Notes under the pieces: generated by a model
Told to the model about the DNA's origin: nothing
The model's input: the letters and a program-made list of their open reading frames with translations, nothing else
Database searches by the model: none
Program-made: the position numbers and the translations under genes
Source of the DNA: a virus
Lineage: Duplodnaviria; Heunggongvirae; Uroviricota; Caudoviricetes
Virus record (IMG/VR): IMGVR_UViG_3300029253_000315
DNA: 4,535 nucleotides
Strand: one strand, 5' to 3'
In this document: one piece after another, positions 1 through 4,535 of the stretch
Position numbering within the stretch: the first letter of the stretch is position 1
Layout of the letters: each line of letters opens with the position of its first letter

Positions 1-510
1 GATGCACCGATCATCTCAATAGGTGCAATATTTTTCGATCCGCAAACCGGAGATATAGGACCGGAATTTAGTAAGACTATCGATCTGGAAACTGCTGGCG
101 GAGTCATTGATCGGGACACCATTAAATGGTGGCTTAAGCAATCACGCGAAGCGCAATCTGCCATTATGACCGATGAAATCCCGTTAGATGATGCACTGTT
201 ACAATTGCGGGAATTTATCGACGAAAACTCCGGTGAATTTTTTGTTCAGGTCTGGGGAAATGGAGCCAACTTCGACAACACAATTTTGCGCCGTTCATAC
301 GAACGGCAGGGGATCCCCTGCCCGTGGCGTTACTACAACGATCGCGATGTACGCACAATCGTTGAGCTGGGGAAAGCCATAGACTTCGATGCCAGAACGG
401 CTATTCCATTCGAAGGTGAGCGCCATAATGCACTTGATGACGCCCGTTACCAGGCAAAATACGTTTCAGCTATCTGGCAAAAACTGATCCCGAGTCAGGC
501 TGATTTTTAA
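1..510 (+). CDS. Phage-associated DEDDh (DnaQ/RNase T-like) 3'-5' exonuclease, 5'-partial: frame 1 is open from base 1, so the N-terminus (including the Exo I motif) lies upstream of the window
   Basis: Frame 1 has no stop from 1 to the TAA at 508-510. The translation contains an Exo II-like motif (WGNGANFDNTIL) and an Exo III-like motif (HNALDDARYQAKY, His-x4-Asp pattern). Its position upstream of xis-int matches the accessory (ea-like) region of lambdoid prophages. Family assignment is from motif recall, not a database search. Confidence 0.6.
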   Translation, partial: DAPIISIGAIFFDPQTGDIGPEFSKTIDLETAGGVIDRDTIKWWLKQSREAQSAIMTDEIPLDDALLQLREFIDENSGEFFVQVWGNGANFDNTILRRSYERQGIPCPWRYYNDRDVRTIVELGKAIDFDARTAIPFEGERHNALDDARYQAKYVSAIWQKLIPSQADF

Positions 511-524
511 TGTTCAACCCTGAT

Positions 525-552
525 CGCCGCTAACCGCATATAGTTAGCGGCG
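525..552 (+). promoter_or_regulatory. Perfect inverted repeat CGCCGCTAAC-N8-GTTAGCGGCG (10-bp stem, 8-nt loop) in the exonuclease/xis intergenic region; possible terminator, RNA processing or protein-binding site
   Basis: Read directly: 525-534 cgccgctaac, loop 535-542 cgcatata, 543-552 gttagcggcg (exact reverse complement). Followed by GTTAT rather than a long T-run. Confidence 0.35.
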
Positions 553-568
553 GTTATGAGATATAGCC

Positions 569-772
569 ATGAGCAGCTTATTTTTAACCGAAGATGAATT
601 GCTAATATTAACGGGCTGCAAATATGCAAGCCACCAGCGAAAATGGTTAATGGAAAACGGGCTTCCGTTCTATACCAATCGTAGTGGCAAACCGATTGTC
701 AGCCGGGATCTATTTACCTGCAATAAAACTTTACCACCACGCGAGGTAGAGCCGAATTTTGGTGCGATCTGA
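569..772 (+). CDS. Small excisionase-like protein (DUF4224-like; putative recombination directionality factor)
   Basis: 67-aa ORF immediately upstream of the integrase, with its stop overlapping the integrase start (TGATG, 770-774). The N-terminal segment LFLTEDELLILTGCK...WLMENGLPFY resembles DUF4224-type proteins typically encoded next to phage integrases. Function inferred from context and recalled family similarity. Confidence 0.5.
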   Translation: MSSLFLTEDELLILTGCKYASHQRKWLMENGLPFYTNRSGKPIVSRDLFTCNKTLPPREVEPNFGAI

Positions 773-1797
773 TGGGAAGACGAAGGAAAAATCCTGAACA
801 CGAAAAATTACCTCCAAATGTATACCCAAATAAATATAGTTATGTATGGAAACCAACATCCAGAGAATCTGTCACACTAACCGCCATCAAGGATGGTTTA
901 GCTGCTTTATGGAAAAAGTATGAGGAAACTGTAAATAATCGCGATCGTGCAATGACATTCGGTCGCTTGTGGGAAAAATTCCTCGCCAGCGCCTATTACA
1001 GTGACCTTAGTCCAAGAACACAAAAAGATTATCTGCAACATCAAAAAAAATTGCTTGCCGTATTCGGTAAGGTACCAGCGGATTCCATAAAACCAGAACA
1101 CATCCGTCGATACATGGACAAAAGAGGGGAGCAGAGTAAAACGCAAGCCAACCATGAAAAAAGCAGTATGTCCCGTGTTTACAGTTGGGGGTATGAGCGA
1201 GGGTACGTCAAGGCTAACCCATGTGCAGGTGTAAGTAAATTCAAGGCCAAAAACCGCGAACGATATGTAACCGACAAAGAATACCAGGCAGTATTAAGCG
1301 TTGCACCTCTTCCTGTTTTTATCGCAATGGAAATTGCCTATCTGTGTGCAGCGAGGGTTTCCGATGTGTTATCGCTGAAATGGGAACAGATTGGAAACGA
1401 CGGGATATTCATCCAGCAAGGGAAAACCGGAAAAAAACAGATAAAAGCATGGAGTCCACGATTACAGGCAGCGATCGAAAAAGCAAAACAGTTACCAAAA
1501 TCTGCCTATGTGATCAGCAATCAATACGGCAACCGATATATGTACAAAGGCTTTAACGAAATGTGGGTAGAAGCAAGAAATCGTGCTGGAAAAATTTCAG
1601 GTATTTTAACCGACTTCACCTTTCATGATCTGAAGGCGAAAGGAATTTCAGACTATGAAGGAAGCAGCCGGGATAAGCAACTTTTCTCTGGTCACAAAAC
1701 CGAAGGGCAAGTGCTAATCTATGACAGGAAGGTTAAAGTTTCACCAACACTTGATGTCCCGTTACCTGAAAATATTCCAAGAAAATATTCCAAGTAA
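772..1797 (+). CDS. int: Lambda-family tyrosine recombinase (prophage integrase), with Lys at the Arg-II position
   Basis: 341-aa ORF. The C-terminus aligns by eye with the lambda Int catalytic region: ARVSD (Arg-I, codon 1354-1356), QGKTGKK, FHDLKAKG (His 1624-1626; Lys 1633-1635 where Arg-II is expected), SGHK (His 1693-1695), LIYDRK (Tyr nucleophile 1720-1722). It sits 52 bp from the 3' end of tRNA-Ser. Confidence 0.9.
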   Translation: MGRRRKNPEHEKLPPNVYPNKYSYVWKPTSRESVTLTAIKDGLAALWKKYEETVNNRDRAMTFGRLWEKFLASAYYSDLSPRTQKDYLQHQKKLLAVFGKVPADSIKPEHIRRYMDKRGEQSKTQANHEKSSMSRVYSWGYERGYVKANPCAGVSKFKAKNRERYVTDKEYQAVLSVAPLPVFIAMEIAYLCAARVSDVLSLKWEQIGNDGIFIQQGKTGKKQIKAWSPRLQAAIEKAKQLPKSAYVISNQYGNRYMYKGFNEMWVEARNRAGKISGILTDFTFHDLKAKGISDYEGSSRDKQLFSGHKTEGQVLIYDRKVKVSPTLDVPLPENIPRKYSK

Positions 1798-1804: not shown

Positions 1805-1849
1805 TGTGATTTTTGTCACTGACTTAATGATGTGTAAGTGATTGAATTT

Positions 1850-1939
1850 TGGCGGAGAGAGGGGGATTTGAACCCCCGGTGGAGTTGCCCCCACTCCGGT
1901 TTTCGAGACCGGTCCGTTCAGCCGCTCCGGCATCTCTCC
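1850..1939 (-). tRNA. serU: tRNA-Ser (anticodon CGA), 90 nt with long variable arm and encoded CCA
   Basis: The reverse complement of 1850-1939 reads GGAGAGATGCCGGAGCGGCTGAACGGACCGGTCTCGAAAACCGGAGTGGGGGCAACTCCACCGGGGGTTCAAATCCCCCTCTCTCCGCCA. It has a 7-bp acceptor stem (GGAGAGA/TCTCTCC), an anticodon stem CCGGT/ACCGG with loop CTCGAAA (anticodon CGA), and a T-arm GGGGG-TTCAAAT-CCCCC. The serU assignment rests on recalled E. coli K-12 synteny (serU-mtfA-asnT). Confidence 0.93.
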
Positions 1940-2032
1940 GTTCAGATGGTTGCCATGATGCCAGGAAATTTGGCATTTTAACAGTCCCTGTCCGTGCAAT
2001 TTTGTTCAAGTGACGAGTTTGCGAGCAAAACG

Positions 2033-2830
2033 ATGATTAAGTGGCCCTGGAAAGTACAAGAATCAGCACATCAAACTGCCCTTCCCTGGCAGGAAGCACT
2101 ATCGATCCCCCTTTTAACGTGTCTGACGGAACAGGAACAAAGCAAATTAGTCACTCTTGCCGAACGTTTTTTACAGCAAAAGCGGCTTGTTCCTTTACAG
2201 GGCTTTGAACTGGATTCATTAAGAAGCTGCCGGATAGCACTTCTATTTTGCCTACCCGTTCTGGAGTTAGGACTGGAATGGCTGGATGGTTTTCATGAAG
2301 TCTTAATTTATCCTGCGCCATTTGTGGTCGATGATGAATGGGAAGACGATATCGGTCTGGTGCATAACCAACGTATTGTTCAGTCAGGTCAGAGCTGGCA
2401 GCAAGGGCCTATCGTTTTGAACTGGTTGGATATACAAGATTCTTTTGATGCTTCTGGTTTTAACCTGATTATTCATGAAGTCGCTCATAAGCTGGACACC
2501 CGTAACGGCGATCGCGCCAGCGGAGTTCCCTTTATTCCGTTGCGTGAGGTTGCTGGCTGGGAACACGATCTTCATGCTGCAATGAACAACATTCAGGAAG
2601 AAATCGAATTGGTTGGCGAGAATGCGGCGAGCATTGATGCTTATGCTGCCAGTGATCCTGCTGAATGTTTTGCCGTACTTTCTGAATATTTCTTTAGCGC
2701 CCCAGAACTTTTTGCTCCTCGTTTCCCTTCATTGTGGCAACGTTTCTGCCAATTTTATCAACAAGATCCTTTGCAGAGACTGCATCGCACTAATGATACA
2801 GACTCGTTTTCGGCGACGAATGTTCATTAA
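2033..2830 (+). CDS. mtfA: MtfA (Mlc titration factor A; DUF980/M90-type zinc peptidase), 265 aa
   Basis: Translation from the ATG at 2033 begins [14 protein letters not shown], which I recognise as the E. coli MtfA N-terminus. It contains an HEXXH zinc-binding motif (IIHEVAHKL). The ORF-track start at 1994 adds 13 residues ([13 protein letters not shown]) that I treat as a spurious upstream extension. Confidence 0.9.
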
Positions 2831-2855
2831 TTAACAACTTTGCAGATTAATTAAC
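2826..2855 (+). promoter_or_regulatory. Duplicated AT-rich element ATTAATTAAC (2826-2835 and 2846-2855) upstream of the asnT promoter; possible UP element or Fis-type activator sites
   Basis: Read directly; two exact 10-bp copies 20 bp apart, each containing the palindrome TTAATTAA. The second copy is centred roughly 70 bp upstream of the predicted transcription start. The first copy overlaps the mtfA stop codon. Confidence 0.3.
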
Positions 2856-2883
2856 CAATTGAAATGACTTATGAAATTTAGTG

Positions 2884-2920
2884 TTGACAGACAAGGTACC
2901 GCTAAGTAATATGCGCCCCG
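2884..2920 (+). promoter_or_regulatory. Sigma70 promoter for tRNA-Asn: -35 TTGACA (2884-2889), 17-bp spacer, -10 TAATAT (2907-2912), GC-rich discriminator GCGCCCCG (2913-2920)
   Basis: Read directly. Consensus -35, optimal spacer and near-consensus -10 lie 18 bp upstream of the mature tRNA 5' end. A GC-rich discriminator is typical of stringently controlled stable-RNA promoters. Confidence 0.6.
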
Positions 2921-2930
2921 TTCACACGAT

Positions 2931-3006
2931 TCCTCTGTAGTTCAGTCGGTAGAACGGCGGACTGTTAATCCGTATGTCACTGGTTCGAGTCCAGTCAGAG
3001 GAGCCA
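2931..3006 (+). tRNA. asnT: tRNA-Asn (anticodon GUU), 76 nt with encoded CCA
   Basis: Sequence TCCTCTGTAGTTCAGTCGGTAGAACGGCGGACTGTTAATCCGTATGTCACTGGTTCGAGTCCAGTCAGAGGAGCCA, with anticodon loop CTGTTAA (GTT), matches the E. coli tRNA-Asn as I recall it. The asnT copy is assigned by adjacency to mtfA. Confidence 0.95.
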
Positions 3007-3168
3007 GATTCAAGTTTTCATGCTTATCTGTACGTTTATATTTGTTTACGATTCAGTAAGTTAGCGTGAAAATCCTTGCCGGTGCGTATCTGGTTTTATC
3101 TCCGCATCGGGATAATTTGGTGGTCAGATCTGGGGTCAGTTTGGTTCGATTCTGGAGTGACCCCCAAA

Positions 3169-4437
3169 ATGTCTTTAAACGATTCTAAAATCCGCAAGTT
3201 AAAATCTTCTTCCCGTCCGGTAAAACTCTCCGACTCTCACGGTCTGTATCTGCTCGTCAATCCGGGCGGTTCACGCATCTGGTATCTCAAATATCGTTTC
3301 AACGGAAAAGAATCCAGAGTCAGTCTTGGCGCATACCCGCTGGTCTCACTGGCAGAAGCCAGGCAACAGCGCGACGGTATCCGCAAGTTACTGGCGCAGA
3401 ATATCAACCCGGCGCAGCAGCGCATGGCAGAGAAAGCCGCCTGCTCCCCTGAAAAGTGCTTTAAAGCGGTGGCGGTGGCGCTGGCCTGGCACAAAACCAA
3501 CAAAAAATGGTCGGCTGATTATGCCGCCCGTATTCTCGCCAGTATGGAAAACCATATCTTCCCGGCGGTTGGTCATTTGCCCGTTGCCAAACTTAAAACG
3601 CAGGATTTCACTGCCCTGCTGAGGGTTATTGAGGATAAGGGCTTTCTGGAAGTCGCGTCCCGCACGCGGCAGCAACTCAGCAACATCATGCGCTATGCCG
3701 TATAGCAGGGGCTTACCGAAAGCAATCCGGCGCAGCATCTGGATGGCGTTGTCTCCTCCCCCGTAAAGAATCACTACCCCGCGTTACCGCTGGAGCGGTT
3801 GTCCGAACTGCTTGGCCGCATCGGTGACTATCAGCAGGGCCGGGAGTTAACCCGGCTGGCGGAGGTGCTGACACTGCACCTGTTCATCCGTTCCAGCGAA
3901 CTGCGTTTCGCCCGCTGGAGCGAGATCGATTTCAGGCACAAAATCTGGACCATCCCCGCCACCCGCGAGGCCATCGACAAAGTTCGGTTTTCGGGGCGTG
4001 GCGCAAAAATGCGTACTCCGCATATCGTACCGCTCTCCCGCCAGGCGATTGCCCTTCTGAAACAGATACAGGAGCTTTCCGGCCATCTGGATCTGGTGTT
4101 TCCCGGCGATCATAATCCGTACAAGCCAATGAGCGAAAACACAACCAACCGGGCGCTGCGCCTGATGGGGTATGACACGAAAACTGAAATCTGCGGGCAT
4201 GGACTCAGGGCAATGGCCTGTAGCGCCCTGGTGGAGTCGGACCTGTGGTCACGCGATACGGTGGAGCGGCAAATGAGCCACCAGGAGCGCAACAGCGTGC
4301 GGGCGGCATATGTGCATAAAGCAGAGCATCTGGAGGCCAGAAAGGCCATGATGCAGTGGTGGTCGGATTATCTGGATGTGTGCCGCGAGGGGTATGTTGC
4401 GCCGTACATTTATGCCCGGCAGCATAAGGCAGCCTGA
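3169..4437 (+). pseudogene. int: P4-family (phage/island-type) tyrosine integrase interrupted by one in-frame amber codon (TAG at 3703-3705); fragments 3169-3705 and 3706/3799-4437 are in the same frame
   Basis: ORF-track entries 3076..3705 and 3799..4437 are both in frame 1, and I translated 3706-3798 with no further stop. The product from the ATG at 3169 starts MSLNDSKIRKLK...GLYLLVNPGGSRIWYLKYRFNGKESRVSLGAYP, an N-terminus typical of P4-type integrases. The downstream part carries catalytic-domain motifs (IRSSELRFARWSEIDF, CGHGLRAMA, VRAAYVHKAEHLEARKAMMQWWSDYLD). It lies immediately 3' of tRNA-Asn in the same orientation, the usual arrangement for asn-tRNA islands. GGAG at 3154-3157 is a plausible Shine-Dalgarno. 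Confidence 0.8.
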
Positions 4438-4535
4438 ATCAGAAATAGCGTAAATCATTAAAACCGGAAAAGCAGATCCTGGGTAATGACTCCAACTTAT
4501 TGATAGTGTTTTATGTTCAGATAATGCCCGATGAC

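What the first reader, a model, noticed from the sequence alone, without database searches (positions are those of the whole stretch)
3169..4437. P4-type integrase at asnT is split by a single in-frame amber codon
Both integrase fragments share one reading frame and are separated only by TAG at 3703-3705 (context RYAV-TAG-QGLTESNPA). The stop falls before the catalytic domain, so termination would yield an arm/core-binding N-terminal fragment without the active-site Tyr. This could be a recent inactivating point mutation that immobilises the downstream island, a sequencing error, or an amber read through in a suppressor background. A single-nucleotide lesion in an otherwise intact integrase is a clean marker of island fixation.
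Basis: seen in the sequence. Interest (0 to 1): 0.6.

Follow-up and report, generated by a model that had tools for sequence, protein, structure and literature searches.

The report
Common amber-stopped island integrase pseudogene
The stop codon splitting this integrase gene is real, but it is an inherited and very common dead allele of an E. coli genomic-island integrase that public annotation already marks as a pseudogene, so it is ordinary.

Summary
Window 3169-4437 is one reading frame for a P4/CP4-type tyrosine integrase beside asnT, broken only by TAG at 3703-3705. Intact relatives have Gln (CAG) or His there.

The interpretation needs correcting:
- It is not a sequencing error or a recent private mutation. 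The same GTA-TAG allele occurs in 269 of 5,426 complete E. coli genomes (353 copies; 84 genomes carry it at two asn-tRNA islands). The sense allele GTT-CAG occurs in 159. RefSeq annotates the gene as a pseudogene with an "internal stop".
- The window's exact 178-aa N-terminal fragment is on record in 549 blocks of public assemblies.
- Changes private to TAG alleles run non-synonymous:synonymous 9:5, against 49:176 on intact lineages. That fits relaxed constraint.
- The window copy carries two further changes: a 6-bp in-frame duplication (3466-3471) and Val-to-Glu at a family-invariant residue (3862-3864).
- IS1 starts 44 nt after the gene's stop codon. In the only public contig identical through that junction, the rest of the island is gone.

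This is a decaying relic integrase of an eroded island, a known kind of thing.

The parts
2931..3006 (+). tRNA-Asn (GTT), the asnT copy downstream of mtfA. Its last 16 nt (2991-3006, CCAGTCAGAGGAGCCA) form the left direct repeat (attL core) of the island.
   Evidence: ARAGORN and Rfam. The same 16-mer recurs as a right repeat in relatives: L002 8961-8976, and L009 at 212-227 and 34714-34729. It occurs only once in the window.
3169..3702 (+). N-terminal part of the integrase pseudogene (178 codons): the arm-type DNA-binding domain plus about 80% of the core-binding domain.
   Evidence: Pfam Arm-DNA-bind_3 (E=7.6e-25) and Phage_int_M positions 3-80 of 96 (E=2.2e-20). PDB 3JTZ, a CP4-like integrase N-domain, matches at E=4e-34.
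3466..3471 (+). 6-bp tandem duplication (GCGGTG) that adds Ala-Val to the core-binding domain.
   Evidence: Absent from most alleles (1263 nt) and present in the EC6563-type allele (1269 nt).
3703..3705 (+). In-frame amber codon TAG replacing Gln (CAG). The preceding codon is GTA, where the sampled sense alleles have GTT.
   Evidence: Counts across complete E. coli genomes are. The equivalent position is Q or H in 80 relatives from other species.
3706..4437 (+). C-terminal part of the pseudogene: the end of the core-binding domain plus the catalytic domain, through the natural TGA stop. R241, K280, H344, R347, H371 and Y381 are retained.
   Evidence: Pfam Phage_integrase, E=4.4e-17. Invariant-column comparison with 71 intact relatives.
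3862..3864 (+). GAG (Glu232) where 70 of 71 ORF-intact relatives have Val. It lies in the stretch just before catalytic Arg241 and is probably a second damaging change. 21 of 24 sampled TAG alleles share it.
4482..4535 (-). Terminal 54 nt of an IS1 element with its transposase on the minus strand, inserted 44 nt after the integrase stop codon. It cuts off the rest of the island.
   Evidence: Matches to IS1-free relatives end at 4481. IS1 transposase is annotated at this place in L094 and L001. Junction sequences are compared.

Best explanation
The gene is a pseudogene. A P4/CP4-family tyrosine integrase once inserted a small genomic island into the 3' end of an asn tRNA gene. In relatives that island carries a second integrase-like gene and Rhs toxin modules. 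In one allele lineage codon 177 (179 in the window) changed from CAG (Gln) to TAG, so translation stops inside the core-binding domain and no protein with the catalytic Tyr is made.

The dead allele was then inherited. It was probably also moved between strains, and between the asnT and asnV copies, by homologous recombination or gene conversion. It is now the commonest form of this integrase in E. coli and has since evolved without detectable constraint. In the window's lineage it decayed further through a 6-bp duplication and V232E. An IS1 insertion just downstream, with an adjacent deletion, removed the rest of the island and its right attachment repeat.

Shown: the stop, its ancestral state, its frequency, the domain position, the relaxed N:S ratio and the IS1 junction. 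Inferred: spread by recombination or conversion, loss of function, and what lies beyond IS1 in this particular genome.
For: - Frame and colinearity with intact homologues.
- Ancestral codon: CAG in E. coli sense alleles; Q (35) or H (45) and never a stop in 80 relatives from other Enterobacterales.
- Frequency: GTA-TAG in 269 genomes and 353 copies, GTT-CAG in 159 genomes, out of 436 genomes with the family.
- RefSeq PGAP annotates it as a pseudogene with "internal stop".
- The exact N-terminal fragment is in 549 blocks of public assemblies.
- Domain position of the stop.
- Relaxed constraint: TAG-private polymorphic changes are N:S 9:5 (9:3 in the first 18 copies). The neutral non-synonymous fraction is 0.76. 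Intact lineages give 49:176; Fisher p=0.0012 (2e-4 for the first sample).
- V232E is the only departure from 190 near-invariant columns.
- Independent lesions in sister alleles (a frameshift in L006/L100, a different stop in L007, an IS1 truncation in L103) show this integrase is repeatedly lost.
- The two ATCC 8739 copies differ at 3 of about 1500 nt across tRNA, spacer and integrase, against 1.8-2.8% (and 15% in one 1.1-kb stretch) elsewhere in the islands. TAG alleles share a central haplotype with mosaic flanks. Both fit recombination or conversion.
- IS1 and loss of attR.
Against: - None of the 23 full-length TAG copies sampled has a frameshift or second stop, so the decay is shallow and the N:S test rests on only 14 changes.
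- A dead integrase sitting in two separately integrated islands, each with perfect 16-bp repeats, needs an extra step: gene conversion, or integration helped in trans.
- The direct precursor GTA-CAG was not found in any complete E. coli genome.
- No expression or excision data exist here.
- The window ends inside IS1, so what follows in this genome is inferred from one identical contig.
Confidence: 0.87

Rival explanations
1. Leaky stop. The UAG is occasionally read by near-cognate tRNA-Gln, which would restore the wild-type Gln. That would give a trickle of full-length integrase, so the allele is a down-tuned gene and not a dead one.
For: The ancestral residue is Gln. The stop is followed by C, which I recall from the literature (not tested here) is a weak termination context. 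No further ORF-breaking lesion appears in 23 full-length TAG copies. The TAG allele is present in two site-specifically integrated islands with intact repeats.
Against: Post-TAG changes downstream of the stop run N:S 6:4, including V232E at an invariant residue in 21 of 24 copies. The paralogue pattern is explained by a conversion tract. In this window the island has no right repeat to recombine with.
Confidence: 0.05
2. The truncated 178-aa N-terminal protein (arm-binding plus most of the core-binding domain) is kept for a job of its own, for example as a DNA-binding repressor of island excision or a competitor of related asn-tRNA integrases such as that of the HPI (the Yersinia high-pathogenicity island).
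For: The TAG allele is the majority allele. The N-terminal fragment contains a complete arm-binding domain. The identical fragment is widespread.
Against: TAG-private changes upstream of the stop are N:S 3:1, plus an in-frame duplication, which gives no sign of constraint though the numbers are tiny. The fragment loses the last roughly 16 profile positions of its second domain. High frequency is equally explained by clonal inheritance and hitch-hiking.
Confidence: 0.04
3. Sequencing or assembly error, or a private mutation that arose recently in this isolate.
For: None beyond the single-base nature of the stop.
Against: The identical 35-mer spanning the TAG occurs in 269 complete genomes from unrelated projects. 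The exact protein fragment is in 549 blocks of assemblies.
Confidence: 0.01
4. The host carries an amber suppressor tRNA, so the gene is expressed in full.
For: None in the window.
Against: serU, the supD locus, lies in the window and has the wild-type CGA anticodon. Suppressor alleles are laboratory rarities, and 269 natural isolates share the stop. Other suppressor loci such as glnV and tyrT lie outside the window and could not be checked.
Confidence: 0.01

Closest known systems
Integrase of the Yersinia high-pathogenicity island (HPI) at asn tRNA genes in E. coli and Yersinia
   Same: Same P4/CP4-type architecture and the same target, the 3' end of asn tRNA genes including asnT. About 72% nucleotide identity to a second integrase class present in over 2,000 E. 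coli genomes, which is presumably the HPI integrase though I did not verify that. The N-domain matches the PDB 'CP4-like integrase' 3JTZ at E=4e-34. The E. coli HPI is also immobilised at asnT and spreads with its flanks by homologous recombination (PMC2606025).
   Different: It is a distinct integrase lineage on a different, much smaller island carrying Rhs and a second integrase-like gene, with no yersiniabactin genes. The HPI is fixed by loss of its right repeat, whereas this element is disabled by a nonsense codon.
Decayed integrase genes of tRNA-associated genomic and pathogenicity islands (general phenomenon)
   Same: A tRNA-flanking P4-type integrase disabled by a point lesion, with the island otherwise retained. 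Sister alleles are hit independently by a frameshift, another stop and IS1. 6 of 80 relatives in other species also carry internal stops.
   Different: The only unusual aspect is that one specific nonsense allele outnumbers the sense allele species-wide and occupies two paralogous islands in 84 genomes.
RefSeq PGAP pseudogene records for this gene, e.g. CJZ69_RS09060 and CJZ69_RS08970 in E. coli ATCC 8739 and MYG04_RS05490 in EC6563
   Same: The same gene with the same TAG, annotated 'tyrosine-type recombinase/integrase; internal stop'. The EC6563 copy is 99.9% identical to the window copy and includes the 6-bp duplication.
   Different: Those strains keep the rest of the island and its right repeat. 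The window copy is followed by IS1.

Membership tests
P4/CP4-type tyrosine integrases (arm-binding DUF4102 type) | N-terminal Arm-DNA-bind_3 domain | tested here: met
   Pfam PF13356, E=7.6e-25, residues 3-87. PDB 3JTZ at E=4e-34.
P4/CP4-type tyrosine integrases (arm-binding DUF4102 type) | Central core-binding domain (Phage_int_M) | tested here: met
   PF22022, E=2.2e-20, but the stop cuts it at profile position 80 of 96.
P4/CP4-type tyrosine integrases (arm-binding DUF4102 type) | C-terminal catalytic domain with the R-K-H-R-H-Y residues | tested here: met
   PF00589, E=4.4e-17. R241, K280, H344, R347, H371 and Y381 sit in columns invariant in 71 relatives. Assigning these residues to catalytic roles rests on the standard tyrosine-recombinase motifs, since no solved structure matched by sequence.
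P4/CP4-type tyrosine integrases (arm-binding DUF4102 type) | Gene lies next to the 3' end of a tRNA gene that is repeated at the far end of the element | tested here: met
   The gene starts 162 nt downstream of asnT. The 16-bp repeat is found at island ends in relatives L002 and L009, but no right repeat is in the window.
Functional (active) integrase | Uninterrupted reading frame joining the DNA-binding and catalytic domains | tested here: not met
   TAG at 3703-3705. PGAP marks it 'internal stop'.
Functional (active) integrase | Purifying selection on the coding sequence | tested here: not met
   TAG-private changes are N:S 9:5 against 49:176 on intact lineages, p=0.0012. The sample is small.
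Functional (active) integrase | Catalyses excision or integration | not testable with these tools
   Needs PCR for attP/attB or a recombination assay.
Programmed stop-codon read-through or recoding | The stop is conserved across diverged homologues, with constraint maintained downstream | tested here: not met
   No stop at this position in 80 relatives from other species. Downstream N:S is 6:4.

The most novel reading that the evidence does not exclude
The amber allele may not be just drift. It outnumbers the sense allele and sits in both paralogous islands, which could mean selection for silencing or down-tuning the integrase. That might stabilise Rhs-toxin islands, with rare read-through by tRNA-Gln restoring the exact wild-type protein, and the allele would have spread between copies by gene conversion.
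Probability: 0.06. Interest if true: 0.35.

Novelty: already known. Interest (0 to 1): 0.12.

Why it matters
It matters little beyond correct annotation. The stop is a lineage marker for a common dead integrase allele at E. coli asn-tRNA islands, and another example of mobile islands being fixed and then eroded by IS1. The one mildly useful population-genetic point is that a single nonsense allele has become the majority form and occupies two paralogous islands. That would make a small case study of gene conversion and recombination spreading a loss-of-function allele.

Tried and rejected
- Sequencing error: rejected by exact-word counts and the exact-protein look-up.
- Single-base precursor: a search for GTA-CAG in 5,426 E. 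coli genomes found nothing. GTA-CAG does exist in other species, including E. albertii, so whether this was one mutation or two adjacent ones stays open.
- Suppressor idea: only serU (supD) could be checked, and it is wild type.
- Structural anchor for the catalytic residues: phmmer of the C-terminal half against PDB found nothing even at E=10, so I used invariant columns instead.
- Literature: two searches found nothing on this specific integrase or its stop. PMC8209727 and PMC10562709 gave only general context on asn-tRNA islands and T6SS-2/Rhs.
- Source strain: no complete E. coli genome is identical to the whole window (best 99.5%). It could be a Shigella or a draft E. coli genome, and I did not resolve this.
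- Re-initiation: the first in-frame start after the stop is TTG at 3799, with a GGAG only 3 nt upstream. It would give a catalytic domain with no DNA-binding domains, so I did not pursue it.
- I did not run the large protein-database searches or structure prediction, because nothing in the verdict depended on them.

Full report
**What is in the window.** The 4,535-bp window is E. coli-type chromosome.
- Positions 1-1797 are the end of a prophage: the C-terminal 3'-5' exoribonuclease domain of an exonuclease gene, a DUF4224 gene and an intact 341-aa integrase. It is inserted at tRNA-Ser(CGA), serU, at 1850-1939 on the minus strand.
- mtfA (yeeI) follows at about 2033-2830.
- tRNA-Asn(GTT) lies at 2931-3006.
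- The gene in question lies at 3169-4437.
- The end of an IS1 element begins at 4482.
- The order mtfA then tRNA-Asn is the asnT locus (PMC2606025).

**Check of the observation.** Translating 3169-4437 in one frame gives a single internal stop, TAG at 3703-3705, in the context RYAV*QGLTESNPA. The natural TGA follows at 4435-4437.
- Both halves align end to end with ORF-intact 420-aa homologues that read RYAVQQGLT.
- Pfam finds Arm-DNA-bind_3 and Phage_int_M in the first half and Phage_integrase in the second.
- The stop falls at profile position 80 of 96 in the central domain, ahead of the catalytic domain.
- The N-domain matches the solved 'CP4-like integrase' fragment 3JTZ at E=4e-34.

**What the codon used to be.** E. 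coli alleles without the stop have GTT CAG (Val-Gln) where the window has GTA TAG. Among 80 related integrases fetched from other Enterobacterales species, the position is Gln in 35 and His in 45, and never a stop. Six of the 80 have stops elsewhere. The TAG is therefore a derived nonsense change from CAG. The single-step precursor GTA-CAG occurs in other species, including E. albertii, but in none of 5,426 complete E. coli genomes. One mutation or two adjacent ones cannot be told apart.

**It is neither an error nor recent.** I used 35-nt queries in which every 28-nt seed word must span the dinucleotide.
- GTA-TAG is found in 269 complete E. coli genomes at 353 places, and 84 genomes have two copies.
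- GTT-CAG is found in 159 genomes, always once.
- The family as a whole is present in 436 genomes.
- RefSeq annotates every TAG copy I fetched as "tyrosine-type recombinase/integrase, internal stop".
- The window's exact 178-aa N-terminal fragment, including its 2-aa duplication, is indexed in 549 blocks of public assemblies.
- The amber allele is thus the majority form of this integrase in the species.

**What the integrase belongs to.** In relatives the gene heads a small island bounded by a perfect 16-bp repeat of the tRNA 3' end (CCAGTCAGAGGAGCCA).
- In EC6563 the island is 4.1 kb: the integrase plus a 294-aa second integrase-like gene (PF12834/PF12835).
- ATCC 8739 has an 8.8-kb island at asnT and a 16.8-kb island at asnV, both carrying Rhs core and immunity genes.
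- O145:H28 has T6SS genes further on.
- Other alleles of the integrase are broken independently: a frameshift in L006/L100, a different stop at codon 370 in L007, and an IS1 insertion at nt 879 in L103.
- The ORF-intact O145:H28 allele has Lys in place of the second catalytic Arg (HGLK instead of HGLR).
- Losing this integrase is evidently the rule.

**Is the TAG allele still under selection?** I compared 24 TAG copies (12 haplotypes) with sense alleles.
- TAG alleles share a central haplotype over roughly codons 83-230. Their flanks are mosaics of states also seen in sense alleles, which points to recombination.
- Changes found only in TAG alleles and polymorphic among them are 9 non-synonymous to 5 synonymous (9:3 in the first 18 copies).
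- The fraction expected with no selection is 0.76. ORF-intact lineages give 49:176. Fisher p is 0.0012 (2e-4 for the first sample).
- Against 190 columns near-invariant in 71 intact relatives, the window departs only once besides the stop. That departure is V232E, just ahead of catalytic Arg241, and 21 of 24 TAG copies share it.
- The catalytic R, K, H, R, H and Y residues are all still present.
- Together with the 6-bp duplication, this describes a young pseudogene that is unconstrained but only lightly decayed. The test rests on few changes and should be repeated on all copies.

**The two-copy puzzle.** A dead integrase in two separately integrated islands looks odd.
- In ATCC 8739 the two copies differ at 3 of about 1,500 nt across tRNA, spacer and integrase.
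- The rest of the two islands differs by 1.8-2.8%, and one 1.1-kb stretch by 15%.
- That pattern fits a recombination or gene-conversion tract that homogenised the integrase end and carried the TAG with it.
- The HPI (the Yersinia high-pathogenicity island), fixed at the same locus, is known to spread between E. coli strains with its flanks by homologous recombination (PMC2606025). That gives a precedent for a non-excising island travelling widely.
- This step is inferred, not shown.

**This particular copy.** IS1 begins 44 nt after the integrase stop codon, and the window has no second copy of the 16-bp repeat.
- One public contig (GCA_905134115.1, L094) is identical to the window from 1893 to 4535, including the junction.
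- In that contig IS1 is followed by a 133-aa WcaD-family fragment and the colanic-acid genes, and no right repeat occurs within 10 kb.
- Other strains have IS1 50 nt further downstream, followed by a truncated yeeJ (L001), or inside the integrase (L103).
- In this lineage there is therefore most likely no island left to immobilise. The integrase is a relic.

**Rivals.**
- Suppression: the only suppressor locus in view, serU (supD), is wild type.
- Read-through restoring Gln is chemically plausible and not excluded, but the unconstrained downstream changes and V232E argue against a maintained function.
- A functional N-terminal fragment is likewise not excluded, and nothing supports it.

**Verdict.** Novelty is "already known" and interest is low.

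Noticed in passing
window 1840-1892 (serU, tRNA-Ser 1850-1939, minus strand): The prophage at serU supplies its own 3' part of the tRNA. Compared with prophage-free strains, the variable-arm pair 48-59 is G-C instead of A-U, a compensatory double change (coordinates 1892 and 1881). A few more differences lie just past the tRNA end.
   Followed up: partly
window 1-1797: End of a serU-integrated prophage: the Rv2179c-like 3'-5' exoribonuclease domain at the C-terminus of a large exonuclease, a DUF4224 gene (569-772) whose stop overlaps by one base the start of an intact 341-aa integrase (772-1797). In O145:H28 RM12761 the same integrase is frameshifted.
   Followed up: partly
window 4482-4535; L001 5627; L103 2880: IS1 sits at three different junctions at or just after this integrase in different strains, each followed by different truncated genes (wcaD, or yeeJ cut at two points). 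This indicates repeated IS1-mediated erosion of the asnT island.
   Followed up: partly
L094 11329-20537 (GCA_905134115.1): In the contig identical to the window through the IS1 junction, IS1 abuts a 133-aa wcaD fragment in K-12 orientation. That implies loss or relocation of the stretch between asnT and the colanic-acid cluster, which in K-12 (from memory) includes yeeJ, his and the O-antigen genes. That contig also has an IS5-type element in place of yodB. The pattern looks Shigella-like; I did not identify the organism.
   Followed up: no
L005 5001-6263 (E. coli O145:H28 RM12761, WP_025380446.1): The ORF-intact allele of this integrase has HGLK instead of HGLR, a Lys at the position of the second catalytic Arg. 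It may be inactive despite its open frame.
   Followed up: no
L009 (ATCC 8739) 15580-16842 and 42119-43381: 84 complete genomes carry two TAG copies (asnT and asnV islands), while every sense-allele genome has a single copy. The paralogues are near-identical only over the tRNA-integrase end.
   Followed up: partly
L002 7580-8464 (minus strand), and equivalents in L003, L004, L008 and L090-L097: The island carries a second, usually intact 294-aa integrase-like gene (Pfam Phage_int_SAM_2 plus Integrase_1) facing the P4-type integrase. Its role is unknown, and it is absent from the window because of IS1.
   Followed up: no
L101 6001-9349 (E. coli RMDEC364): At another asn tRNA, an intact 424-aa allele of this integrase with a different C-terminal tail is followed by a second full-length tyrosine integrase gene. 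This looks like tandem islands.
   Followed up: no
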